From NCBI GenBank assembly GCA_964478595.1, contig CAYZIN010000001.1:4294-68293 (forward strand): 64,000 nucleotides of DNA. Direction: 5' to 3'. Position 1 is the first letter of the stretch. Each line of letters starts with the position of its first letter. Source of the DNA: an uncultured Candidatus Saccharibacteria bacterium. Lineage in GTDB: Bacteria > Patescibacteriota > Saccharimonadia > UBA4664 > CAZJNH01. Positions 12,432-45,371 of this stretch are shown here, one piece after another. Under the pieces are notes generated by a model. That model ran no database searches. It was not told the origin of the DNA and worked only from the letters and a program-made list of their open reading frames with translations. Made by a program: the position numbers and the translations under genes.

Positions 12432-12712
12432 GCTAGGTCTAAGCTCTTGGTCAAACGATCCTGATCAAAACCTAAAATTCCTTCAGCCGAACCATTCTCG
12501 TGGGTAATGACGGTAAAAGGCACGCCCATTTGGCCCGACAAACGAATCATTTCTTCGGCTTGAGCGGCGTCGGCGTCAACGTGAGCCTCCTCATACTTAA
12601 CGCCCTTCGAATCTAAAAACGCCTTTTCGGCGCGACAGTAAGCGCAGGTTGCTGTGGTGTAAATCTTAACTTTAGCCATTACCTCTATTCTAACAAATCG
12701 TGCAAACGCCAA
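12428..12712 (-). CDS. glutaredoxin-like protein (NrdH/glutaredoxin family)
   Basis: 94 aa; CAYC redox motif in thioredoxin-fold context; 4-nt overlap with trxB. Confidence 0.7.
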   Translation of the reverse strand: MAFARFVRIEVMAKVKIYTTATCAYCRAEKAFLDSKGVKYEEAHVDADAAQAEEMIRLSGQMGVPFTVITHENGSAEGILGFDQDRLTKSLDLA

Positions 12713-13734
12713 AACCGGCCGGGAGATGTTTCCCCGACCGGTCTTCGCCGGCTTCGGCGTTGGTACGTCATGAGTATGAGGTAGTTCGTCAGCAGCAAAC
12801 CAATTGCGATGACGGTGAGCGGCTTAGATTTCGAGGCCGCGTGATGGGCCATCAACTTCGCCGGTCGGCTGAGCCTACGCGGCAACACCACACCGCCGGT
12901 GAGGGCATTGGCGGGAGGCGCTTGGACCCTTGCCTCAACTCCGGTCGCAGACTTCGGGCTCGGAACAACCGCCAGAATACTCGACAAAGGTCGCTCGAGA
13001 TTGGCCTTCACAACTGGCCCGACTCCAACTAGCCCTTCGACTAGCTTCATGCGGCCACCGACCTTCGCCAGACCGTTGCTCGGTTTCGAAACAACTTGCC
13101 CGGCAGCAACCATCTCGGATGAACCACCGCCGTCGAAGTTGACCGCCGTATAGCAACCAAGTTGCCGAGTAAGCGCCCTGGCCTCCGCCAAGGTGGCTCC
13201 CGGACTACCAGGTTGCCGACCGTCGACGACCACCAAAAGCAAGTCGCCGTTTTGGCGCTTGCAGGCAATGGTCCTAGGTTCCCGTTTCGTGCTGAAAAGG
13301 TCGTCTGGCAGAGTCGGCAAACGATCTTGGGGCTTGTTGGCCGTTTGATCGATCAATGTAACCGCTCCAGGTCCAATTCCGGGAACGTTAAAGCCAAGCA
13401 TCTGCTTCACAACCGGGTGAGTGCCCGCGATCGGTACCCCCGTTGACCGATTAAAGAACCCAGCGTTGACCGCCAATAAGCAATGGCTTTCTCGGCAAAT
13501 CTGGCTAGCAGTTTTCTTGCCGGCGCCAGACAGCACCTTCAGTTTGACCGGCGCCGATCCCGAAACGGCCGCCACGTGCACCAGGTTGGGGTGCCCTATG
13601 GCAGAAGTCTTCAGGTCGAACATGCTTACGCCAGGCCCCAGAACTCGTCCCGGAACCGTTTGAGCAGCTTCGGCCGACAGCGCAACTGCCTGCCAGCCCA
13701 AAACCACTAGCAAAATCAAGCTCCGTTTGAGCAC
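12685..13734 (-). CDS. secreted phosphodiester glycosidase family (NAGPA-like) protein
   Basis: 349 aa; signal peptide; NFDGGGSS motif typical of the phosphodiester glycosidase domain; markedly GC-rich coding sequence. Confidence 0.55.
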   Translation of the reverse strand: MLKRSLILLVVLGWQAVALSAEAAQTVPGRVLGPGVSMFDLKTSAIGHPNLVHVAAVSGSAPVKLKVLSGAGKKTASQICRESHCLLAVNAGFFNRSTGVPIAGTHPVVKQMLGFNVPGIGPGAVTLIDQTANKPQDRLPTLPDDLFSTKREPRTIACKRQNGDLLLVVVDGRQPGSPGATLAEARALTRQLGCYTAVNFDGGGSSEMVAAGQVVSKPSNGLAKVGGRMKLVEGLVGVGPVVKANLERPLSSILAVVPSPKSATGVEARVQAPPANALTGGVVLPRRLSRPAKLMAHHAASKSKPLTVIAIGLLLTNYLILMTYQRRSRRRPVGETSPGRFWRLHDLLE

Positions 13735-13825
13735 CTCTACCTCCTCAAGGTACTACTCCCCCATCCGTCAATTTTTACTATATACCTCTTATGCTTAGTG
13801 TCCACAAATTGAACCATAAGAACTA

Positions 13826-13854
13826 TTGACAAACCAGGAGTAAGATGATAGAAT
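13826..13854 (+). promoter_or_regulatory. sigma70-like promoter (TTGACA - 17 nt - TAGAAT) for the zinc-ribbon gene
   Basis: ttgacaaaccaggagtaagatgatagaat located about 45 nt upstream of the ATG at 13900, in an AT-rich spacer following GC-rich DNA. Confidence 0.55.
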
Positions 13855-13899
13855 GGTGCGCATCCGTAAGGAGTACAGCCCTACAATCTAAGGAGACAA

Positions 13900-14331
13900 A
13901 TGATCTGCTTCAAGTGTGAAGCGGAAGTCGACCCCGAAGCCGAGTGCTGCTGGAATTGCGGCACCGAGGCTGAGGAGATCAAGCACAACGCAGCGCGAAT
14001 CGAGTGGCATGAGCGCCAGCTCGAGCTGCAAGGCGAGGACTTCCTCACCGACCAGAAGCAACCGGTCTACGCCTTCGTCTATATCACCGTCCAGTACGGC
14101 GACTTCGACGAAGTAGACTTCCGCTTTTCGTCGGTTCTCTGGGATGCCGCGCACATAGATGATGACGTCGCCACTCAAAACGCCATCATCGGTAAGTACA
14201 AAGGCATCCTGGCCGGACACCTGCGCAAGAAGTTTAAGCAGGAGCCTCGGCTGCCGACAATCAAGTGGTTGGACTTTCTGGATGCTATCACCAGCCTCCG
14301 AGATCCACGCATTACCGCTCCTTCGACCTAA
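13900..14331 (+). CDS. zinc-ribbon-containing hypothetical protein
   Basis: 143 aa; N-terminal CxxC-x16-CxxC (CFKCE...CWNCG); own promoter and terminator; GC-rich codon usage (G/C third positions). Confidence 0.6.
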   Translation: MICFKCEAEVDPEAECCWNCGTEAEEIKHNAARIEWHERQLELQGEDFLTDQKQPVYAFVYITVQYGDFDEVDFRFSSVLWDAAHIDDDVATQNAIIGKYKGILAGHLRKKFKQEPRLPTIKWLDFLDAITSLRDPRITAPST

Positions 14332-14334
14332 CGG

Positions 14335-14381
14335 CCCCAGAAACAGCTTCAGCGCGAAGCCAGTTTCTGGGGTTTCGTGCG
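14335..14381 (+). terminator. rho-independent terminator
   Basis: Perfect 10-bp stem CCCCAGAAAC / GTTTCTGGGG (14335..14344 and 14363..14372) with 18-nt loop, followed by T-rich tract tttcgtgcgtttatgggtttattttt. Confidence 0.7.
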
Positions 14382-14452
14382 TTTATGGGTTTATTTTTAC
14401 GTCAAAATCTGTTATTTTGTACTGCTCGGTTTCGAACCACGATCTTTGAGAG

Positions 14453-15646
14453 GTGAATATGCATCGTGATCCCAAACCGGCCGGAAAGTTTCTGGCTGGC
14501 CAGCGTTTCATGAACGAAGATGACCCGGAGTTGGTGTGGCGGATGATAAGTTTGACTGTCCGCGGCATCAACTGGTACGCCATTTGGAGCGTTGGGCTGG
14601 CGGTGAACCTGCCGAAAGCTGGCGAGATCATCGTCCCTCAGCTGGGCAACAAGCGGCGCTACAAGCGCCCCGACCGCCCAGTTCGTTCTACCGATGAAGT
14701 ACCAACTCAGGCGGAGCGGCGCACCTACACCTGCGACACTCTGCGGCGAAAACTCGAGGTCCACGTTCCGGGCAACCTCGAACGCTCGCAGGCGGAGATC
14801 GAATACCAGGTGGAGGATTTTCGAAATGCCGCCGAAGCTGCCGCCCACGGGAAAGATCTGTCAGCCGAGGAACGTGAATACTATGCGTTCCGGCTGGGCG
14901 AAGATGCCAAAGCGCTCAGCGGCAAGCACAGTCCCTACTTAATGTCGGCCGCCGAGCGAGCTGAGGATGCCAAGGACTTCACCGACTCTCTCTCTCGTTA
15001 CAACCCGCAAGCCTCCGGTTTGAAGTTGCAGGCGGGGGAGCGTAACTTGGGTGCCCAGAGCGATCAGAACGAAAAGTCGAGGCGGGCCAACAGCAAACAA
15101 CGGCTGGCGCTTCGGGAATACGATGAGTTCATGCAAGCCACTCGGGCACAGGTGCGTTTGATTTTGCACCAGCCGCCAAGTCAGAAACTTAGCGAGAACC
15201 TGCGAAACTGGATCGGTCAGTTGGCGACTAAGCCCGACTACTTCGCGGCCAACTACATCGAAGCGTTGCTTGACCGCGATCCGCTGTCGGAAGATAGCTA
15301 CTCCCGCGGTCGACGAGTGCTGGTGGCCGAAGAGGGTTGGAGCTTGGTTGAGGAGATGATGTCCCAACTCAAGCGTCAGCCAGAACTCTACCGAAGCTAC
15401 CAGCTCAAGCTGCCGGACCTGCTGAATCAGATTGAGCAGCTTGGCTTGCCGCCGCACCGCAGATTGGTTGAGGAAGTTCGGCCGTACATTCGGAAGCTGG
15501 GTGAGGCGTTTATGGCGCCAAACGATGAGTTGCGCCTAAAGCTGATGAAGCGATCAGCCGAAAAAGTTCTAGCGGTCTTAAGGGACCGCGTCGAACCAAT
15601 TTGGCTGCCCGCACGGTTGCATCACCTAGCCGGTCTGCCGGTCTAG
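14453..15646 (+). CDS. hypothetical protein (397 aa), highly charged/alpha-helical
   Basis: Long GC-rich ORF with GAGGTG RBS 6 nt upstream; no motif I recognise; followed by a strong bidirectional terminator. Confidence 0.6.
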   Translation: MNMHRDPKPAGKFLAGQRFMNEDDPELVWRMISLTVRGINWYAIWSVGLAVNLPKAGEIIVPQLGNKRRYKRPDRPVRSTDEVPTQAERRTYTCDTLRRKLEVHVPGNLERSQAEIEYQVEDFRNAAEAAAHGKDLSAEEREYYAFRLGEDAKALSGKHSPYLMSAAERAEDAKDFTDSLSRYNPQASGLKLQAGERNLGAQSDQNEKSRRANSKQRLALREYDEFMQATRAQVRLILHQPPSQKLSENLRNWIGQLATKPDYFAANYIEALLDRDPLSEDSYSRGRRVLVAEEGWSLVEEMMSQLKRQPELYRSYQLKLPDLLNQIEQLGLPPHRRLVEEVRPYIRKLGEAFMAPNDELRLKLMKRSAEKVLAVLRDRVEPIWLPARLHHLAGLPV

Positions 15647-15656
15647 TTCGAAACCG

Positions 15657-15688
15657 AAAAGGCCTCCGCACATGCGGGGGCCTTTTCT
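15657..15688. terminator. bidirectional rho-independent terminator
   Basis: aaaa GGCCTCCGCA ca TGCGGGGGCC tttt: 10-bp stem (one G.U) flanked by A-run and T-run, between convergent genes. Confidence 0.75.
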
Positions 15689-15703
15689 CATTCTTAGCTC
15701 TGA

Positions 15704-15892
15704 TTACATCTGGGTCGGAGCTGGCGGAGTCGTACCGTCAGCGGGGTGTTCTTCCGGAGCAGCTGGAGCCGCCGGGTCGACTGGAGCAGCCGGAGCCGGT
15801 GCGCCACCCATGTCGGGGGCTGGAGTTACCGGAGCGTCGGTGGTCGGCTCGCTACCGGGTGTCGGGGTCGGGGTCGGGTTCATTGGATCCAT
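15704..15892 (-). CDS. small Pro/Ala/Thr-rich (low-complexity) hypothetical protein
   Basis: 62 aa MDPMNPTPTPTPGSEPTTDAPVTPAP...; ATG with GGA-containing upstream; ends at the shared terminator. The opposite-strand Gly/Ala-rich ORF 15672..15938 is the alternative reading; the call is uncertain. Confidence 0.3.
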   Translation of the reverse strand: MDPMNPTPTPTPGSEPTTDAPVTPAPDMGGAPAPAAPVDPAAPAAPEEHPADGTTPPAPTQM

Positions 15893-15953
15893 AATTTCTA
15901 GGTCCTTTCGTTATTATTTACCGTTGTGCCTAGCATAATATCAAGCCGGCTAT

Positions 15954-36232: not shown

Positions 36233-36877
36233 TTACTGCTGAACGATGACGGTCGCCTTCTCTGGAATCCAGTGGTAGAACGCATAGGCGTCAGACCACG
36301 GGATCCGCACACAGCCGTGCGAGGCATTGGTGCGATAAGGAACATTTTCGCCATGGATGGCGTCAAGGTTCCCTTTAAACCACACTGGCCACTTCATGAG
36401 CCCGATTGTTGAGTCGTACCAGCCGTCGGGTCCCATATTGTCGACCCCGCCGTTGTAGTCCGAGATGTCTTGGCGATGAGCCGTAAACACTCCGGTTGGA
36501 GTGTTCGCGTCACCGCTGTTCTCGTGACCCTTGTAGAACTCGTCGTAGTGACCACCTTTGCCAGAGGAAACCGGCAACGTGCCAACGATCAGGCCGTCTT
36601 GCATCTCGTATAACTGAAAGTCTGAGATGTCGACCACGACGTAGCGACCCTTGAGGTCGGCGATGTGATCGTAGGGTGGGGTAGTCGGCCGCGGCGGGAG
36701 ATATGACATCTTCGACTTCGGCACAATTACGCGTTGGGCACGGGCAGGTGCATGCGCCACCGACCCGGCCGGAGCCGTAACTCCGAGAGCCGAAAACGCT
36801 AATACCGACAACGAAACTATCAAACGGTGCACCCATCCTCCATTCGTACAGGGAATACGGTGCGAGCATAATACCAT
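36233..36877 (-). CDS. L,D-transpeptidase (YkuD domain)
   Basis: 214 aa; signal/TM, catalytic HGCVRIP motif. Confidence 0.8.
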   Translation of the reverse strand: MVLCSHRIPCTNGGWVHRLIVSLSVLAFSALGVTAPAGSVAHAPARAQRVIVPKSKMSYLPPRPTTPPYDHIADLKGRYVVVDISDFQLYEMQDGLIVGTLPVSSGKGGHYDEFYKGHENSGDANTPTGVFTAHRQDISDYNGGVDNMGPDGWYDSTIGLMKWPVWFKGNLDAIHGENVPYRTNASHGCVRIPWSDAYAFYHWIPEKATVIVQQ

Positions 36878-39027: not shown

Positions 39028-39561
39028 TTACTCGGCCGGTTTTTCGGGCTCGGGAGTTTGAACTGCAGCCTCAGCGGCTACTTCTTCGGCTTTTTCGGCA
39101 GCCTGCTCTTGTTTTTGATCGACTTCGGCGGTCTCCGTCACGTTCTTGTCTTCTACGTTTTCAGCCACTTGCGCTACTTGTTCGGCGGCAGCTTCGGCGC
39201 CGACTGCGGCTGGTTGTTCAGTATCGGCCGGTTTTTCGGCTTCTGGGGCCTCGCTAGCTGCCGTAGCCTCAGGCTTTGCTTCTTTCTTGGCTGGTTTGTT
39301 CTTCGAGTGATAACTTGCCCATTTCGGCATGCTGACTTTCTCTTTTTCCAGCAAGCGTATAACCGAGTTCGATGGCTGAGCGCCGTTTTTCAAAAATTGC
39401 TCGGTTTCGTCTTTTTTAACCACAAATTCTTTGGTATGCGGATTGTAGTGGCCCAAAATCGACACAAATTTACCGGTGGCTGCCTTTTGCTTTTCGGCGG
39501 CTACCAGTCGGTAAGTCGGATACTTTTTTCGCCCGGTCCGGGCCAAACGGATAACTAACAT
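39028..39561 (-). CDS. rpsP: 30S ribosomal protein S16 with long Ala/Glu/Lys-rich C-terminal extension
   Basis: MLVIRLARTGRKKYPTYRLVAAEKQKA...GHYNPHTK core S16, then about 95-aa low-complexity tail. Confidence 0.85.
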   Translation of the reverse strand: MLVIRLARTGRKKYPTYRLVAAEKQKAATGKFVSILGHYNPHTKEFVVKKDETEQFLKNGAQPSNSVIRLLEKEKVSMPKWASYHSKNKPAKKEAKPEATAASEAPEAEKPADTEQPAAVGAEAAAEQVAQVAENVEDKNVTETAEVDQKQEQAAEKAEEVAAEAAVQTPEPEKPAE

Positions 39562-39613
39562 ACGAACGATAATTTTAGGCTACATCTGGAGATTCGTCAA
39601 TCTGTTAAAAGGA

Positions 39614-39645
39614 AGCGCTCCCCCTGTAGCGAAACAGGAGGAGCG
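39614..39645 (-). terminator. strong hairpin downstream of the GC-rich hydrolase gene
   Basis: GCGCTCCCCCTGT agcgaa ACAGGAGGAGCGC (13-bp stem, 1 mismatch); on the minus strand it is followed by CTTTT. Confidence 0.5.
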
Positions 39646-39692
39646 CAGTGTGGCAGGCCAGGAGGCCGCCGATAGAAGTGCGGGGTAAGTAC

Positions 39693-40469
39693 TTAAGCGG
39701 CAAGCCGTCGGGATTTCTCCAACGCGATGTCGCTGACCTTATGGCCGAACATCGTCGTCATGTGCCCAGTTGCTCCGGCGCGGACGAACACAACCTCGGG
39801 CGGAAGTCCAGGCGGTCGGAAGAGATGACCCAGGAAGTACTTGATCGATCTCTCCAGGGAGATGCACGACCGTCTTGGTCGCGCGACCCGTTCGCCGATA
39901 CCGGTGGTCTGCCGTAGATCGACCAACTCTGGCCAGCTGGTGGCAACGTCCAGACGGAGCTGACGGATGTCGTCGCCGACGAAGGCGATGTCGTGCAGTC
40001 CGGGGGCGAATTCGGCCAGCAATTGCTCGACCCTTTCCAGGCTGAGCTGCCAGACGAATGAGACCATCTTGGATGCGTCGCGCCGCAGGACGAAGGCCAT
40101 CGTCGCCGCCAGCCAGTTGCGAAGCCAGCGGCCAACATCGGAGTCGGTTATATCAACCCCGTTGGTGGGCGAGTGCCATGTAACAACTCGCTTGACCTTA
40201 TCCGGCCGGCTCATCCCGTAACGGGCTGCGTAAGCCCCACCATAGGAGTGGCCGACGATGATGGCGGGCGCGTTAGCTTTCTCGAGCTTCGCGTCGATCT
40301 CGGCTTCGATCTCCGGGTAGGTGTCCTTCATCGAGCGCAAGGCCAGGTGAGGGATGTTGACGTAGTCGGAGTGGGCCAACCAACACTGCAAGGCGTAAGC
40401 CGCCCGGCCGATACCTTTGCCGGGGACTATGCTACCCCCGATGTCTATGACTGGGTTTTGCGGGTCCAT
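39693..40469 (-). CDS. alpha/beta hydrolase (esterase/lipase-like), GC-rich, likely horizontally acquired
   Basis: 258 aa; VGHSYGGAYAARYG nucleophile elbow; about 62% GC against about 49% in flanking housekeeping genes. Confidence 0.65.
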   Translation of the reverse strand: MDPQNPVIDIGGSIVPGKGIGRAAYALQCWLAHSDYVNIPHLALRSMKDTYPEIEAEIDAKLEKANAPAIIVGHSYGGAYAARYGMSRPDKVKRVVTWHSPTNGVDITDSDVGRWLRNWLAATMAFVLRRDASKMVSFVWQLSLERVEQLLAEFAPGLHDIAFVGDDIRQLRLDVATSWPELVDLRQTTGIGERVARPRRSCISLERSIKYFLGHLFRPPGLPPEVVFVRAGATGHMTTMFGHKVSDIALEKSRRLAA

Positions 40470-40591
40470 TCCCCATTTCCCCTTAGGAATGAGCTGCTTC
40501 AGTTAGCAATAACTTCTGCTAGTCACCGGTATAGCATAACTACGATGAATTAGCAATTACTTAGTTCAGTTTTTGGAATATTGCACAAAAA

Positions 40592-41281
40592 CTACTTGTA
40601 GTTCTTTAGGGCATCGGCGGCGGCGGCGAGTTGAGCGACCTGTTTGCTCGAGCCTTTGCCTTTACCCAATAGCCGACCGGTCAAATAGACGCCAACTTCG
40701 AACGTTTTGTCGTGATCGGGACCAGATTCTTTGATGACCCTATAGCTTGGAGTCACGCCTTCTTTGTCCTGCGCCATTTCCTGAAACTTACTTTTCGGAT
40801 CCAGGTAGCTCCCTTCTTCCAGAATTTCCGGAAGTTTGGCGATTATATGGTCGTGGATAAATTTCGAGGCAGCGTCGTAACCTTGATCCAAATAAATCGC
40901 TCCGATAATCGCCTCAATGCAATTTGCCGAAATCAGCGCGCGGCTGCGGTCGTTGCCCTTTGATTCACCTCGGGATAGCTTCAAATAATCACTGACTCCC
41001 AATTTAGCCGCTACGTCACTTAAAGATTCGGTTTTAACCAAGGCGCTGCGATAGTTGGTGAGTTCGCCCTCGGGATTCGCAAAGTGTTTATATAAATAAT
41101 CGGTAACGACCAGCTCCAAAACGGCGTCGCCTAAAAATTCCAGCCGTTCGTTGTGCTCGAGTCCCGATTTGGGATGCTCGTTAAGGTAGGAGCGGTGAAT
41201 AAAGGCGCGCTCTAGCAGCTCGATTTCCTTAAATTTGAAACCCGACTTTTTTTGAAAATCAGCAGCCGTTGGTTTATCCAT
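40592..41281 (-). CDS. rnc: ribonuclease III
   Basis: 229 aa; ERLEFLGDAVLELVV RNase III signature and C-terminal dsRBD. Confidence 0.9.
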   Translation of the reverse strand: MDKPTAADFQKKSGFKFKEIELLERAFIHRSYLNEHPKSGLEHNERLEFLGDAVLELVVTDYLYKHFANPEGELTNYRSALVKTESLSDVAAKLGVSDYLKLSRGESKGNDRSRALISANCIEAIIGAIYLDQGYDAASKFIHDHIIAKLPEILEEGSYLDPKSKFQEMAQDKEGVTPSYRVIKESGPDHDKTFEVGVYLTGRLLGKGKGSSKQVAQLAAAADALKNYK

Positions 41282-42491: not shown

Positions 42492-45371
42492 CTACTTGGT
42501 GACGAAGTTGATCAGTTTGCGGGGAACCACTACAGTGCGGACGATTTCTTGGCCTTCCAGTTGTCGGCTGATTTCTTTTTTAGCCAGCTCGGTGGTCTCA
42601 GCTTCGGTCGAGTCGAGAGTAATAGTAATCGTGGCCCGGAGTTTGCCATTAACTTGGATTGGGATTTCAACCAGGTCCTCTTTAATGAGTTTTTCATGGT
42701 ATTTCGGCCAGCCCTGGAGGTGAATCGATTCCTTTTCGCCCAAAGCCTTCCACAACTCTTCGGTTACGAATGGGGCAAACGGCGCTAGAAGTTTGAGCAG
42801 GGCGTTGATGGCCTCTCTCCAGGATTCGCCGCCAAGCGGAAGATCGGGTTTGAGTTTATACATTCCATTGACGAATTCCATAAGGGCGGCGACGGCAGTA
42901 TTAAAAGCAAAACTGCTGATGTCACTGGTGACTTTTTTGATAGTTTTGTTGGTTAGCGACGCCAAAGCCGTTTCCAGTTCGGCATTGGGTTGGAATTCTG
43001 TTGATTCAGTGAATTCCTCGACTAATCGCCAAACGCGGCGAATAAAGCGGTCGGTGCCAGCCAGCCCATTTTCTTGCCAGTTGGTTTCTTCGTTGTAGGG
43101 CGCGATAAACATTTCAAATAATCGCAGCGCGTCGGCGCCGTAACCCTGGTCGATTACTGCTTCTGGAGTAATCACATTTCCGGAGGATTTACTCATTTTG
43201 CGCCCGTCAGAGGCCAAAATCATGCCCTGGTTACGCAGCGTTAAAAACGGTTCGTCGAAGTCGATAATATTGGCGTCCTTCATGACCTTAGTCCAAAACC
43301 GGGCATACAATAGATGTAGTACCGCGTGTTCGGCGCCGCCAATGTAGGTATCAACCGGCAGCCAGTAACGAACCTTTTCAATATCGAATGCCTTTTTGTC
43401 GTTGTGCGGATCAGCAAAGCGGAGGAAATACCAGCTCGAGCAGGCAAAACCATCCATAGTGTCGGTTTCGCGTTCGGCCGGGCCGCCGCATTTCGGGCAA
43501 GTGGTTTTAACGAACGATTCAACTCGAGCAAGTGGCGACTTGCCATCTCCGGCCGGTTCGTAGGATTTAATCTCCGGCAACATCACCGGCAATTGATCTT
43601 CCGGAACCGCAACGGCTCCATCTTTTTCACAATGAATAATCGGCATGGGGGCACCCCAATACCGCTGTCGGCTGATTAACCAATCCCTCAAACGATAATT
43701 GGTAGTCGCCTCGGCCCTACCTTCTTTATGAAGATCTTCGGTAATAGCGTGTTTAGCTTCGTCTCCGGCTAAATCGGCATACTTGCCCGAGTGAACTAGG
43801 GGGCCTTCGCCGGTGTAAACTTGGCCGTGAATAAATTTGTCGTAACCATAGCGGTGCAGCGGCTCGGTGATTTCGCGTTCTGCGGTTTCGCGGTTGACCC
43901 ACTCGACCTTAAAATTACCGTGTTCGTAATCGTCCAGCTTCTGAGCTTTCTGGATATTACTTTTCAATTTTAGGCGGACAAAGTTAACCGCTGCCTCGCA
44001 AGCCTGCTGCTTTGAGAACGCGTAGTATTTGTAGTGAACCGTCTCGGCACCAACCTCATCCACCTCCAGGTCGTGATAGCCAGTTTCCTCTTCTATTTCA
44101 CGCAAAGCCGTATCAACCGGCGATTCACTGCCTTCAATTGTGCCGCCGATAGTAAGCCGGCCTCCAAGTTTTGGTCCCCAGTTGATCGTTAAAATCTCAC
44201 CCTCATCATTTTCGACTAACGCCACGATCTTTCGTTTTTTCTTGAACTGGGTCATATCTTTGGCGTCATCGCGCACTAATACCGGATCAACGACGTGTTT
44301 AATCGGCAAGTCGAACTTTTTAGCAAAGTCGAAGTCGCGCTGGTCGTGAGCCGGAACGGCCATAATGGCGCCGGTGCCGTAACCCATCAGCACATAATCG
44401 GCTACCCAAATCGGAATTTCGTCATTATTTAGCGGATTTATGGCGTACGAGCCGGTGAAAACCCCAGTTTTTGGCTTGTCGGTATCCATCCGGTCGATTT
44501 CCGATTCGGTTTTAGCTTTTTCGACGTATTTTTTAACCTCGCGGACCTGTTTTTCGGTCGTCAATTTTTCGACGAGTGGATGTTCGGGTGCCAAAACAAT
44601 AAACGTCGCACCACCCAACGTGTCGACTCTGGTCGTAAAGGTTTCGATAATTTCATCGCGGCCCTTAACATCGAACTTCAACTTCACACCAAAGCTGCGG
44701 CCGATCCAGTTTTTTTGCTGAGCTTTAATGCCTTCCGGCCAGTCTAGTCCGTTGAGATCGTCGATCAACCGATCGGCATAGTCGGTGATTTTGAAGAACC
44801 ATTGCTTGAGTGTCTTTTTGGTGACTTCGTGGCCGCAGCGCCAACACTTGCCGTCAATAACTTGCTCGTTGGCCAGTACCGTTTTGTCGTTGGGGCACCA
44901 CCACTGCTCACTCTCTTTTTGATAAGCCAGGCCCCTCTCAAACAACAGCAAAAAGAACCACTGCGTCCATTTGTAATATTTCGGATCGGTAGAATCGACC
45001 TCGCGGCTCCAGTCGTAGGAAAAGCCCATCCCCTGCATCTGTTTTTTGTAGTTAGCCTTATTCTCATCGGTAGCCTGACGGGGTGAGATTTTTTGTTTGA
45101 TGGCATAATTTTCGGCCGGCAAACCAAAGCCGTCCCAACCCATTGGGTGCAAAACGTTATCGCCCATCATCCGCCTGAACCGAGGATAAACGTCACTGAT
45201 CGTGTAATTGCGGACGTGTCCTACGCTCAACCCGGCGCCAGAGGGATACGGAAAATAATCTAATATATAGGACTTAGGCTTACTCGAATCGTCGTCGGTA
45301 GAGTACAGATGAGCGTCAGCCCAGATTTTTTGCCACTTCGGCTCAATTTTGTGCGGTTCGTATTTATTCAT
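42492..45371 (-). CDS. leuS: leucine--tRNA ligase carrying an inserted Nudix hydrolase domain
   Basis: 959 aa; HVRNYTISDV (HIGH-region), editing-domain TTRVDT and HDQRD motifs, NYRLRDW...RQRYWG, KMSKS; plus a canonical Nudix box G-x5-E-x7-REIEEETGY at residues 410-432 within an approx. 135-aa insertion absent from E. coli LeuS. Confidence 0.9.
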   Translation of the reverse strand: MNKYEPHKIEPKWQKIWADAHLYSTDDDSSKPKSYILDYFPYPSGAGLSVGHVRNYTISDVYPRFRRMMGDNVLHPMGWDGFGLPAENYAIKQKISPRQATDENKANYKKQMQGMGFSYDWSREVDSTDPKYYKWTQWFFLLLFERGLAYQKESEQWWCPNDKTVLANEQVIDGKCWRCGHEVTKKTLKQWFFKITDYADRLIDDLNGLDWPEGIKAQQKNWIGRSFGVKLKFDVKGRDEIIETFTTRVDTLGGATFIVLAPEHPLVEKLTTEKQVREVKKYVEKAKTESEIDRMDTDKPKTGVFTGSYAINPLNNDEIPIWVADYVLMGYGTGAIMAVPAHDQRDFDFAKKFDLPIKHVVDPVLVRDDAKDMTQFKKKRKIVALVENDEGEILTINWGPKLGGRLTIGGTIEGSESPVDTALREIEEETGYHDLEVDEVGAETVHYKYYAFSKQQACEAAVNFVRLKLKSNIQKAQKLDDYEHGNFKVEWVNRETAEREITEPLHRYGYDKFIHGQVYTGEGPLVHSGKYADLAGDEAKHAITEDLHKEGRAEATTNYRLRDWLISRQRYWGAPMPIIHCEKDGAVAVPEDQLPVMLPEIKSYEPAGDGKSPLARVESFVKTTCPKCGGPAERETDTMDGFACSSWYFLRFADPHNDKKAFDIEKVRYWLPVDTYIGGAEHAVLHLLYARFWTKVMKDANIIDFDEPFLTLRNQGMILASDGRKMSKSSGNVITPEAVIDQGYGADALRLFEMFIAPYNEETNWQENGLAGTDRFIRRVWRLVEEFTESTEFQPNAELETALASLTNKTIKKVTSDISSFAFNTAVAALMEFVNGMYKLKPDLPLGGESWREAINALLKLLAPFAPFVTEELWKALGEKESIHLQGWPKYHEKLIKEDLVEIPIQVNGKLRATITITLDSTEAETTELAKKEISRQLEGQEIVRTVVVPRKLINFVTK

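What the first reader, a model, noticed from the sequence alone, without database searches (positions are those of the whole stretch)
39600..40480. GC-rich alpha/beta hydrolase inserted inside the conserved rpsP-KH-trmD / rnc-nudix-nusB-rpmF neighbourhood; second GC-rich patch at 23.45-24.33 kb
Seen in sequence:
- A 258-aa GHSYGG hydrolase gene of about 62% GC lies between two blocks of about 49% GC housekeeping genes.
- It carries its own 13-bp-stem hairpin (39614..39645).
- A second short GC-rich patch (two small ORFs, complement 23484..24080) sits in the tRNA-Gln island.

Inference:
- With the 12.7-15.9 kb island, this makes at least three independent insertions from a high-GC source into an otherwise compositionally uniform genome.
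- That pattern would fit gene flow from a high-GC (for example actinobacterial) host into an episymbiont.
- If the genome turns out not to be CPR, it still marks recent HGT hotspots.
Basis: partly seen in the sequence, partly recalled or inferred. Interest (0 to 1): 0.5.

Follow-up and report, generated by a model that had tools for sequence, protein, structure and literature searches.

The report
Old, fast-evolving GC-rich lipase-like gene
The GC-rich hydrolase is real, but it is not a recent import: it is a lineage-specific lipase-like gene that has sat just after the RNase III gene in a whole subgroup of Saccharimonadales, changing very fast yet staying GC-rich in every genome examined.

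Summary
ORF 39693..40469 (-) encodes a 258-aa GHSYGG alpha/beta hydrolase. Its GC is 61.3% and GC3 0.76, the compositional maximum of a 50.3% GC window, and a 13-bp terminator hairpin follows it.

The window is from Saccharimonadales (CPR). The "recent insertion / HGT hotspot" reading is not supported:
- Eight further assemblies of related Saccharimonadales carry a member of the same tiny family. Five have it directly after rnc. Three short contigs show it by the downstream genes or by conserved flanks.
- The family has 18 hits among 1.84 billion cluster representatives.
- More distant relatives have rnc directly next to rpsP.
- Hydrolase copies are 21-38% identical, against 65-80% for rnc.
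- Promoter, leader, terminator and rpsP promoter are conserved at the CDS edges.
- The hydrolase is 58-62% GC in all these genomes, whatever the backbone GC (48-58%).

The 12.7-15.9 kb island behaves the same way. It is syntenic in a sister genome, at 35-44% identity against 61-93% for its flanks. The 23.5-24.1 kb patch is weak (z = 1.6).

An ancient actinobacterial origin remains possible. The nearest named or solved relatives are Streptomyces-type lipases, and Actinomycetota proteins for the island's NAGPA gene. The persistent GC excess is unexplained. Recurrent allele replacement through the conserved flanks is the main rival.

The parts
39693..40469 (-). 258-aa capped alpha/beta hydrolase (lipase/esterase-like). 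Nucleophile elbow GHSYGG; inferred triad Ser75-Glu193-His236; C-terminus ...RRLAA.
   Evidence: ORF. Pfam Abhydrolase_1 28.8 and Abhydrolase_6 28.3 bits, both above cut-off. Family alignment invariants H74, S75, G77, H236 and the acid column at 193. AF2 pLDDT 89. GC 61.3%.
40528..40556 (-). Putative own promoter TTGCTA-17 nt-TATACC, found by eye.
   Evidence: Coordinates. Same arrangement in L025 (TTGCGC-17-TATACC) and a -10 box in L026 and L028. Not reported by the consensus scan, so inferred only.
40493..40519 (-). Conserved 5' leader block GCAGAAGTTATTGCTAACTGAAGCAGC.
   Evidence: Near-identical in L025 and L026, although the CDS is only 25-32% identical. No convincing RNA structure: -4.3 kcal/mol consensus. 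No Rfam match.
40503..40562 (.). Two copies of a 13-nt direct repeat (40503-40515 and 40550-40562; AAGT[T/A]ATTGCTAA on the - strand). One overlaps the -35 box, one lies in the leader. Possible operator pair.
   Evidence: Repeat family D2. L025 has TTATTGCG at both corresponding places. Function is inferred.
40478..40484 (-). Shine-Dalgarno-like AAGGGGA, 8 nt before the ATG.
   Evidence: Conserved in L025.
39605..39646 (-). Intrinsic terminator of the hydrolase: 13-bp stem, 6-nt loop, TTCCTTTTAA tail.
   Evidence: Hairpins with different stem sequences lie at the same place in L025, L026, L001, L028, L033 and L003.
39572..39600 (-). rpsP promoter TTGACG-17-TAAAAT, immediately after the terminator.
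   Evidence: 10 of 12 matches. Conserved in L025, L001 and L003.
40592..41281 (-). rnc (RNase III), the conserved upstream anchor of the slot.
39028..39561 (-). rpsP (S16), downstream anchor of the slot in this genome.
12685..15894 (.). GC-rich (57%) block: NAGPA-domain protein (12685-13734 -), 143-aa ORF (13900-14331 +), 397-aa ORF (14453-15646 +). Same behaviour as the hydrolase: syntenic in a sister genome but hyper-divergent.
23484..24080 (-). Two orphan ORFs (90 and 102 aa), 57-58% GC, inside a 46% GC variable stretch near tRNA-Gln.
   Evidence: Sister genome L036 has an unrelated 132-aa ORF next to the cupin gene.

Best explanation
The ORF is a genuine, self-contained gene. It has its own promoter and conserved leader (inferred), a Shine-Dalgarno site, a 258-aa CDS and an intrinsic terminator.

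It encodes a capped serine hydrolase of the bacterial lipase/esterase type, with an inferred triad Ser75-Glu193-His236. It has no signal peptide by eye; no predictor was run.

It belongs to a very small, unnamed family. Wherever enough flanking sequence is available, with three exceptions, members lie immediately downstream of rnc in one subclade of Saccharimonadales.

The gene entered the rnc-(smc)-rpsP junction in the ancestor of that subclade. The source was possibly a high-GC, lipase-bearing organism. It has been kept in place since, evolving several times faster than its neighbours.

Its GC-richness is a property of the family in every genome, not a mark of recent arrival here.

Most likely biochemical role (inferred, not shown): hydrolysis of acyl esters such as monoacylglycerols, lysophospholipids or short/medium-chain esters. 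Saccharimonadales are thought to depend on host lipids (general knowledge, not tested here).
For: Same slot, same strand:
- L025 and L033 have nusB-Nudix-rnc-[hydrolase]-rpsP-KH-trmD-bla.
- L001 and L003 likewise.
- L028 and L031 have smc between the hydrolase and rpsP.
- L026 shares the leader and terminator.

One family:
- Only 18 proteins reach E<=1e-3 among 1.84 billion representatives.
- An HMM of the family finds one member per locus, and none in 21 other rnc loci or in L036.
- The alignment keeps G12, H74, S75, G77, P101, G104, H236 and the acid column.

Ancestral state without the gene: rnc abuts rpsP in L013, L016 and L017.

Rate and similarity ranking:
- Hydrolase pairs are 21-38% identical; rnc pairs are 65-80%.
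- The nearest genome by rnc (L025, 80%) carries the most similar hydrolase (31.6%, full length).

Flanks conserved up to the CDS edges. Window versus L025 DNA identity is 70-88% outside and 37-58% inside, switching at about 39,640 and 40,470.

Synonymous sites between these two genomes are near saturation. Four-fold sites are 35-53% identical against 27% by chance. A weakly constrained protein can therefore reach about 30% identity without replacement. My rough estimate is dN/dS about 0.5, versus about 0.1 for rnc.

GC is 58-62% in all slot copies, against backbones of 48-58%.

Fold and family:
- AF2 pLDDT 89, pTM .89, with a helical cap at 110-178.
- Foldseek finds capped carboxylesterases and monoacylglycerol lipases.
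- The family profile matches 'putative secreted lipase' 5h6b/5h6g at 7e-14, then family-I lipases.

No sign of mobility:
- No phage, plasmid or viral match.
- No defence-system match.
- No flanking direct repeats.
Against: - Synonymous divergence is near saturation, so GC3 should have decayed toward the backbone value (about 0.55). It has not, in any lineage. Plain vertical descent does not explain this.
- The hydrolase identity matrix does not simply mirror rnc. L025-L028 is 38% (rnc 69%), while window-L025 is 31.6% (rnc 80%).
- Three family members lie outside the known slot or in unidentified contexts: L032 at 66% GC, L027 next to a DSPc phosphatase, and L035.
- Enzymatic activity, substrate, promoter use and cell location are all untested.
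- The window protein has Glu where the family has Asp.
Confidence: 0.65

Rival explanations
1. Cassette-like allele replacement. The slot is old, but its content is repeatedly swapped by homologous recombination. The conserved flanks would act as the homology arms: rnc plus promoter/leader on one side, terminator plus rpsP promoter on the other. Alleles would be drawn from an ancient, diverse, GC-rich pool shared among Saccharimonadales. This is analogous to O-antigen or capsule loci that keep atypical GC at a fixed chromosomal site.
For: - Identity changes sharply exactly at the CDS edges.
- Flanking non-coding DNA is far better conserved than four-fold sites of neighbouring genes.
- GC3 of 0.65-0.76 persists independently of backbone GC in eight loci.
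- The hydrolase identity matrix is not congruent with rnc.
- The slot also holds other cargo in L001: an HTH_17 ORF of 62% GC.
- Natural competence of Saccharibacteria is general knowledge, not tested here.
Against: - No pair of near-identical alleles in divergent backbones was found. Every allele is the sole member of its 50% cluster.
- At 21-38% identity the incongruence is within noise.
- Conserved flanks are equally explained by purifying selection on promoters and the terminator.
- Fast divergence alone suffices numerically.
Confidence: 0.25
2. A recent, independent horizontal transfer into this genome from a high-GC actinobacterial host, marking an HGT hotspot.
For: - GC, GC3 and tetranucleotide deviation.
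- Distant profile hits to Nocardia and Streptomyces esterase/lipase family proteins, E 1e-7 to 1e-4.
- PDB best match is a 'putative secreted lipase'.
- Family member P0007 lies on a 66% GC contig.
Against: - Syntenic family members occur in at least seven other related lineages.
- No homologue above 32% identity exists anywhere in 1.84 billion representatives.
- No mobility genes, tRNA or direct repeats lie at the borders.
- Promoter, leader and terminator are shared with relatives.
Confidence: 0.05
3. Assembly or binning artefact. A high-GC fragment from another organism was chimerically joined into a Saccharimonadales contig.
For: The composition step coincides with the gene borders.
Against: - The same gene order was recovered in independent assemblies from NCBI, JGI and Logan samples.
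- The flanking regulatory sequences are continuous with those of relatives.
Confidence: 0.01

Closest known systems
Bacterial true lipases of the alpha/beta-hydrolase fold: PDB 5h6b/5h6g 'putative secreted lipase' (from memory, a marine Streptomyces enzyme) and family I.1/I.2 lipases (1ex9, 1hqd, 1tah, 1cvl)
   Same: - G-H-S-x-G-G nucleophile elbow and Ser-acid-His order.
- Family profile matches 5h6b at E 7e-14 over profile positions 41-194, and family-I lipases at about 1e-7.
- Relatives L001, L003 and P0013 keep a PGSxFL motif after strand beta-6.
   Different: - No signal peptide by eye.
- Much shorter than family-I lipases.
- The window protein has a five-helix cap (110-178) and Glu instead of Asp.
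- Pfam Lipase_2 and PGAP1 are not reached at their cut-offs.
- Only 10-16% identity to any solved structure.
Capped carboxylesterases and monoacylglycerol lipases (Est30 1r1d/1tqh, S. aureus FphH/FphI, human MGLL, mycobacterial MGL 7ozm)
   Same: Best Foldseek matches: probability 1.0, TM 0.5-0.57, core plus helical cap.
   Different: TM is only about 0.5 and rmsd 6-11 A. This is a generic fold resemblance and gives no substrate inference.
Fixed-site hypervariable loci with persistently atypical GC (for example the O-antigen rfb cluster between galF and gnd in E. coli/Salmonella; general knowledge)
   Same: - Same chromosomal slot in all relatives and conserved flanks.
- Contents far more divergent than the flanks.
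- Atypical base composition that does not ameliorate.
   Different: - A single gene, GC-rich rather than AT-rich.
- Alleles are all one homologous family.
- No evidence yet of allele exchange.

Membership tests
Alpha/beta-hydrolase fold superfamily | Nucleophile elbow G-x-S-x-G | tested here: met
   GHSYGG at residues 73-78. H74, S75 and G77 are invariant in the family alignment.
Alpha/beta-hydrolase fold superfamily | Match to curated family models above their cut-off | tested here: met
   Abhydrolase_1 scores 28.8 (cut-off 25.8) and Abhydrolase_6 28.3 (cut-off 26.3).
Alpha/beta-hydrolase fold superfamily | Catalytic triad in the order nucleophile - acid (after beta-7) - His (after beta-8) | tested here: met
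   S75. E193 in the loop after strand 184-190 (Asp in at least 90% of relatives). H236 after strand 227-230, invariant. The 3-D geometry of the triad was not measured.
Alpha/beta-hydrolase fold superfamily | Predicted fold matches solved alpha/beta hydrolases | tested here: met
   pLDDT 89. More than 1000 PDB matches at E<=1e-3, all alpha/beta hydrolases among the top 50.
Lipase class 2 / PGAP1-like esterase-lipase families (PF01674, PF07819) | Score above the Pfam gathering threshold | tested here: not met
   PGAP1 scores 20.7, below 24.3. Lipase_2 is not reported for the window protein. More distant profile hits do carry these domains.
BioH pimeloyl-ACP methyl ester esterase (TIGR01738) | Equivalog score at or above 207 bits | tested here: not met
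   21.4 bits.
Recently acquired genomic island | Atypical composition | tested here: met
Recently acquired genomic island | Absent from the same site in close relatives | tested here: not met
   Present at the same site in L025, L028, L033, L001, L003, L031 and L026.
Recently acquired genomic island | Mobility genes, a tRNA target or flanking direct repeats | tested here: not met
   - No tRNA within 6 kb.
- No flanking repeats beyond chance 11-mers.
- No integrase or transposase among the neighbouring ORFs.
- No phage or plasmid similarity.
Recently acquired genomic island | Close homologue in a candidate donor lineage | tested here: not met
   Nothing above 32% identity among 1.84 billion representatives.
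Anti-phage defence gene | Match to a PADLOC model | tested here: not met
   No hit for the window, L025 or L001 hydrolases.

The most novel reading that the evidence does not exclude
The rnc-linked lipase-like gene, the NAGPA/143-aa/397-aa block and perhaps other loci form a distinct class of Saccharimonadales genes. They sit at fixed sites, are hyper-divergent and stay GC-rich. The class would be maintained by diversifying selection and allele exchange (or GC-biased gene conversion at recombination-prone loci), because the products act on the actinobacterial host. An example would be a short-lived (C-terminal Ala-Ala) lipase that harvests or remodels host lipids.
Probability: 0.15. Interest if true: 0.6.

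Novelty: new member of a known kind. Interest (0 to 1): 0.33.

Why it matters
- Method: base composition alone mis-dates gene transfer in these reduced episymbiont genomes. The most 'foreign-looking' genes of this window are old residents shared with sister genomes.
- Biology: the analysis defines a tiny, unannotated lipase-like family that marks one Saccharimonadales subclade.
- It exposes an unexplained pattern. The four genes under 50% identical to their sister-genome orthologues are exactly the four GC-richest of 29 compared (p about 9e-4).
- If that pattern reflects host-interaction loci under diversifying selection, or recombination-driven GC bias, it gives a simple sequence signature for finding such loci in uncultured CPR bacteria.

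Tried and rejected
- Word-indexed search with the single protein returned only itself. The exact-sequence contig look-up of the window protein found nothing.
The viral scan found no relative.
- The metagenome scan with the conserved leader pattern GCAGAAGTTATTGCN{1,2}ACTG gave 120 or more matches. None carried the family or the rnc/rpsP genes of this neighbourhood, so they are chance hits.
- There was no phage or plasmid tblastn match for the hydrolase or the 397-aa island protein. PHROGs gave only weak generic esterase/lipase hits.
- The defence-system idea was rejected. It was prompted by an 826-aa ATPase next to the hydrolase in L031. That protein is SMC (TIGR02168, 620 bits, above cut-off), and the hydrolases have no PADLOC hit.
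- A riboswitch or structured-leader idea was rejected. There is no Rfam hit and the consensus fold is weak, -4.3 kcal/mol.
- The identity of the 66% GC contig L032 carrying family member P0007 could not be established. It has orphan ORFs, one weak PHROG hit and no phage or plasmid match.
- The AFDB Foldseek library was unavailable.
- Two literature searches on Saccharibacteria HGT/GC and lipases returned nothing specific.
- A general GC-versus-conservation correlation was rejected (Spearman -0.14, n.s.). The pattern is bimodal, not graded.
Full report
**1. What is in the sequence**

The window is 50.3% GC. ORF 39693..40469 on the - strand encodes 258 aa with GHSYGG at residues 73-78.

Composition:
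- GC is 61.3% and GC3 0.76, the highest of all ORFs in the window. The adjacent genes are lower: trmD 46.9%, KH 50.5%, rpsP 51.7%, rnc 48.6%, Nudix 47.2%.
- Against all 777-bp windows the gene lies at z = 3.7. Only 0.15% are as high, and the window-wide GC maximum starts at 39634.
- It is also the second strongest tetranucleotide outlier.
- Codon choice is responsible, not amino-acid content. GC3 expected from the window's own synonymous preferences is 0.564; observed is 0.760.

Terminator and neighbours:
- The hairpin is an intrinsic terminator on the gene's own strand (39646..39615): 13 pairs, a 6-nt loop and the tail TTCCTTTTAA. Its energy is -27.9 kcal/mol, z = -4.8.
- Directly after it comes a strong sigma-70-type promoter for rpsP, TTGACG-17-TAAAAT at 39600..39572.

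**2. Whose genome**

A scan of species-representative genomes with the window's RNase III found Saccharimonadales/Patescibacteria MAGs as the closest relatives, 75-55% identical. The genome is CPR.

**3. The decisive result: the gene is in the same slot in the relatives**

In more distant Saccharimonadales/Patescibacteria (L013, L016, L017), rnc is directly followed by rpsP. In the two closest species representatives there is about 1.1-1.25 kb between them. That interval holds an ORF on the same strand with a GHSxGG motif:
- L001 5062-5673, GHSQGG.
- L003 1163-2059, GHSMGG.

A word-indexed search of 5.8 billion proteins found only the query. An exhaustive HMMER pass over 1.84 billion cluster representatives found just 18 proteins at E<=1e-3. 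The best is 32% identical over the full length.

Looking up where these are encoded gave the same neighbourhood again and again:
- P0002 in L025: nusB-Nudix-rnc-[hyd]-rpsP-KH-trmD-bla-SOD.
- P0010 in L033/L034: the same arrangement.
- P0005 in L028: rpmF-nusB-Nudix-rnc-[hyd]-smc.
- P0006 in L031: [hyd]-smc-rpsP-KH-trmD-bla.
- P0003, on a 973-bp contig (L026), has the window's leader and terminator sequences.

An HMM of the family finds exactly one member in each of these loci. It finds none in the 21 other rnc loci or in L036.

The alignment keeps G12, H74, S75, G77, P101, G104 and H236. It also keeps an acidic column, Asp in at least 90% of members and Glu193 in the window protein.

The hydrolase is therefore a real insertion relative to the deeper state. 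But it is shared by a whole subclade and is linked to rnc. It stays next to rnc whether or not smc is still present.

**4. How it has evolved**

| Comparison | Result |
|---|---|
| Hydrolase pairwise identity among the five best-covered genomes | 21-38% |
| rnc pairwise identity, same genomes | 65-80% |
| nusB pairwise identity | 72-83% |
| Window vs L025 DNA identity, flanking genes and intergenic regions | 70-88% |
| Window vs L025 DNA identity, inside the hydrolase CDS | 37-58% |

- The switch in DNA identity lies at about 40,470 (the start codon) and about 39,640 (inside the terminator).
- Upstream, three features are shared by the window, L025 and L026. They are a TTGC..-17-TATACC promoter-like pair, a 27-nt leader block (GCAGAAGTTATTGC.ACTG.AGCAGC) and the AAGGGGA ribosome-binding site.
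- Downstream, each genome has a GC-rich hairpin with its own stem sequence at the same place, followed by the rpsP promoter.
- Four-fold degenerate sites in the flanking genes are 35-53% identical between the window and L025, against 27% expected by chance. Neutral divergence is thus close to saturation. My rough estimate (inference) is dN/dS about 0.5 for the hydrolase and about 0.1 for rnc.
- Fast evolution under weak or diversifying selection is therefore sufficient to explain about 30% identity.
- The nearest genome by flanks (L025) carries the most similar full-length hydrolase. That agrees with descent.

**5. The unexplained part**

| Locus | Hydrolase GC (%) | Backbone GC (%) |
|---|---|---|
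| Window | 61.3 | 50 |
| L025 | 60.5 | 53 |
| L028 | 61.6 | 56 |
| L001 | 60.3 | 54 |
| L003 | 61.9 | 58 |
| L033 | 58.5 | 48 |
| L031 | 58.5 | 52 |
| L030 | 60.7 | 48 |

- With synonymous sites saturated, an old resident should have drifted to the backbone's GC3. It has not, anywhere.
In sister genome GCA_964547425.1 (L036), the NAGPA protein, the 143-aa ORF and the 397-aa ORF lie in the same place, between purN and the glutaredoxin/TrxR/H+-PPase genes. They are 44%, 35% and 38.5% identical, and 54-61% GC in L036. The flanks are 61-93% identical.
- Over 29 genes compared with L025 or L036, the four with under 50% identity are exactly the four GC-richest. Their GC is 0.565-0.613, against a maximum of 0.554 for the rest (Mann-Whitney p = 9e-4). 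There is no graded correlation.
- Candidate explanations, none tested:
  - Allele replacement from a GC-rich pool through the conserved flanks.
  - GC-biased gene conversion at recombination-prone loci.
  - Gene-specific selection on codon usage.

**6. What the protein is**

Sequence models:
- Pfam places it just above threshold in Abhydrolase_1 and Abhydrolase_6.
- It is not BioH (21 bits against 207).
- It does not reach the PGAP1 or Lipase_2 cut-offs.

Predicted structure:
- AlphaFold2 with the family alignment gives a confident model, pLDDT 89 and pTM 0.89.
- It shows a canonical core with a five-helix cap at 110-178.
- Ser75 follows strand 69-74, Glu193 follows strand 184-190, and His236 follows strand 227-230.

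Relatives:
- Foldseek finds only generic capped carboxylesterases and monoacylglycerol lipases, TM 0.5-0.57.
- A profile of the family matches 'putative secreted lipase' 5h6b/5h6g at 7e-14, then family-I lipases at about 1e-7.
- In the large protein database the next relatives outside the family are 'esterase/lipase family' proteins. Those that carry organism names are from Nocardia, Streptomyces, a Myxococcota MAG and Cardinium.

Other features:
- There is no signal peptide by eye.
- Nine of about 16 family members end in Ala-Ala: LAA, PAA (three times), SAA, EAA, VAA, QAA and IAA. This is far above chance for proteins this divergent. It resembles an ssrA-type C-terminal degradation signal (inference).
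- I therefore commit to a short-lived, probably cytoplasmic, serine esterase or lipase acting on acyl esters. That is a function assigned by fold and family only.

**7. Origin**

- Recent transfer into this genome is excluded by the synteny.
- An ancient transfer from a high-GC organism remains possible:
  - The family's nearest named or solved relatives include actinobacterial lipases.
  - One member (P0007) lies on a 66% GC contig of orphan ORFs that I could not identify.
  - The island's NAGPA protein has Acidimicrobiia, Actinomycetota and Streptomyces as its next-best named hits, 40-48% over the domain.
- No phage, plasmid, viral or defence-system link was found.
- No direct repeats, tRNA or mobility gene border the hydrolase.

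**8. The second patch**

ORFs 23484-23756 and 23772-24080 are 57-58% GC orphans with no Pfam, PHROG or PADLOC hit. They lie within 46% GC DNA near tRNA-Gln. The interval as given is only z = 1.6.

In L036 the position next to the cupin gene holds an unrelated 132-aa ORF. FMN-reductase and cupin are adjacent there, whereas the window has 2.1 kb of 45.7% GC DNA between them. This region is genuinely variable, but with both low-GC and high-GC pieces. It is the only one of the three sites where recent gain is plausible.

**9. Verdict**

- It is wrong on recency and independence.
- The object is a new small family within a well-known enzyme superfamily. The persistent GC excess of hyper-divergent fixed-site genes is the one feature that deserves follow-up.

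Noticed in passing
window 42492-45371 (-): The leucyl-tRNA synthetase (959 aa) carries a NUDIX domain (aa 379-507, Pfam 40 bits, Nudix box REIEEETGY) inserted right after the CP1 editing domain (aa 220-377). A separate Nudix gene lies 0.6 kb away.
   Followed up: partly
window 12685-15894; L036 8021-11047: The GC-rich block (NAGPA protein, 143-aa and 397-aa ORFs) is syntenic in sister genome GCA_964547425.1, but only 35-44% identical against 61-93% for the flanks. The NAGPA protein's next-best named hits are Acidimicrobiia, Actinomycetota and Streptomyces.
   Followed up: partly
window-wide (29 genes compared with L025 or L036): The four genes under 50% identical to sister orthologues are the four GC-richest (0.565-0.613, against a maximum of 0.554 for the rest; p = 9e-4). 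The pattern is bimodal, with no graded correlation.
   Followed up: partly
window 56511-57329 (+): pyrH (UMP kinase, TIGR02075 at 267 bits) is 56.7% GC with GC3 0.68 although it is housekeeping. GC-richness here is not confined to accessory genes.
   Followed up: no
window 36233-36877 (-): A YkuD L,D-transpeptidase gene (56.3% GC, GC3 0.67) lies between the beta-lactamase-like gene and SOD. L025 and L003 have no gene there, and the called genes of L031 show none, so it looks like a more recent gain than the hydrolase.
   Followed up: partly
window 20922-23072: 2.1 kb of 45.7% GC DNA (a 411-aa zinc-ribbon protein plus two small ORFs) separates FMN-reductase and cupin, which are adjacent in L036.
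   Followed up: partly
window 40503-40515 and 40550-40562: A 13-nt direct repeat, AAGT[T/A]ATTGCTAA on the - strand. One copy overlaps the putative -35 box and one lies in the leader of the hydrolase gene. L025 has TTATTGCG at both places. It may be an operator pair.
   Followed up: partly
C-termini of family members (window 39693-39701; P0002, P0003, P0005, P0006, P0009, P0014, P0017, P0019): Nine of about 16 otherwise 20-38% identical family members end in Ala-Ala, resembling an ssrA-like degradation tag.
   Followed up: no
L001 4598-4906: In L001 a 102-aa HTH_17/MerR-like (excisionase-type) ORF of 62% GC sits between rnc and the hydrolase. The slot can hold extra GC-rich cargo.
   Followed up: partly
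L032 (Logan SRR30224762, 7.3 kb, 66% GC): Family member P0007 lies among orphan ORFs and an HTH_3/HTH_31 gene on a high-GC contig of unknown origin. It is a possible glimpse of a high-GC reservoir of the family.
   Followed up: partly
L028 5259-6074; L031 1122-3602: smc lies between the hydrolase and rpsP in two relatives, as in the classical rnc-smc ... rpsP order, but is absent from this position in the window, L025, L033, L001 and L003.
   Followed up: partly
window 24524-24910 (+): An Mrr-type restriction endonuclease domain protein (128 aa, Pfam 88 bits) lies in the variable tRNA-Gln region, partly overlapped by a peptidase S51 ORF.
   Followed up: no
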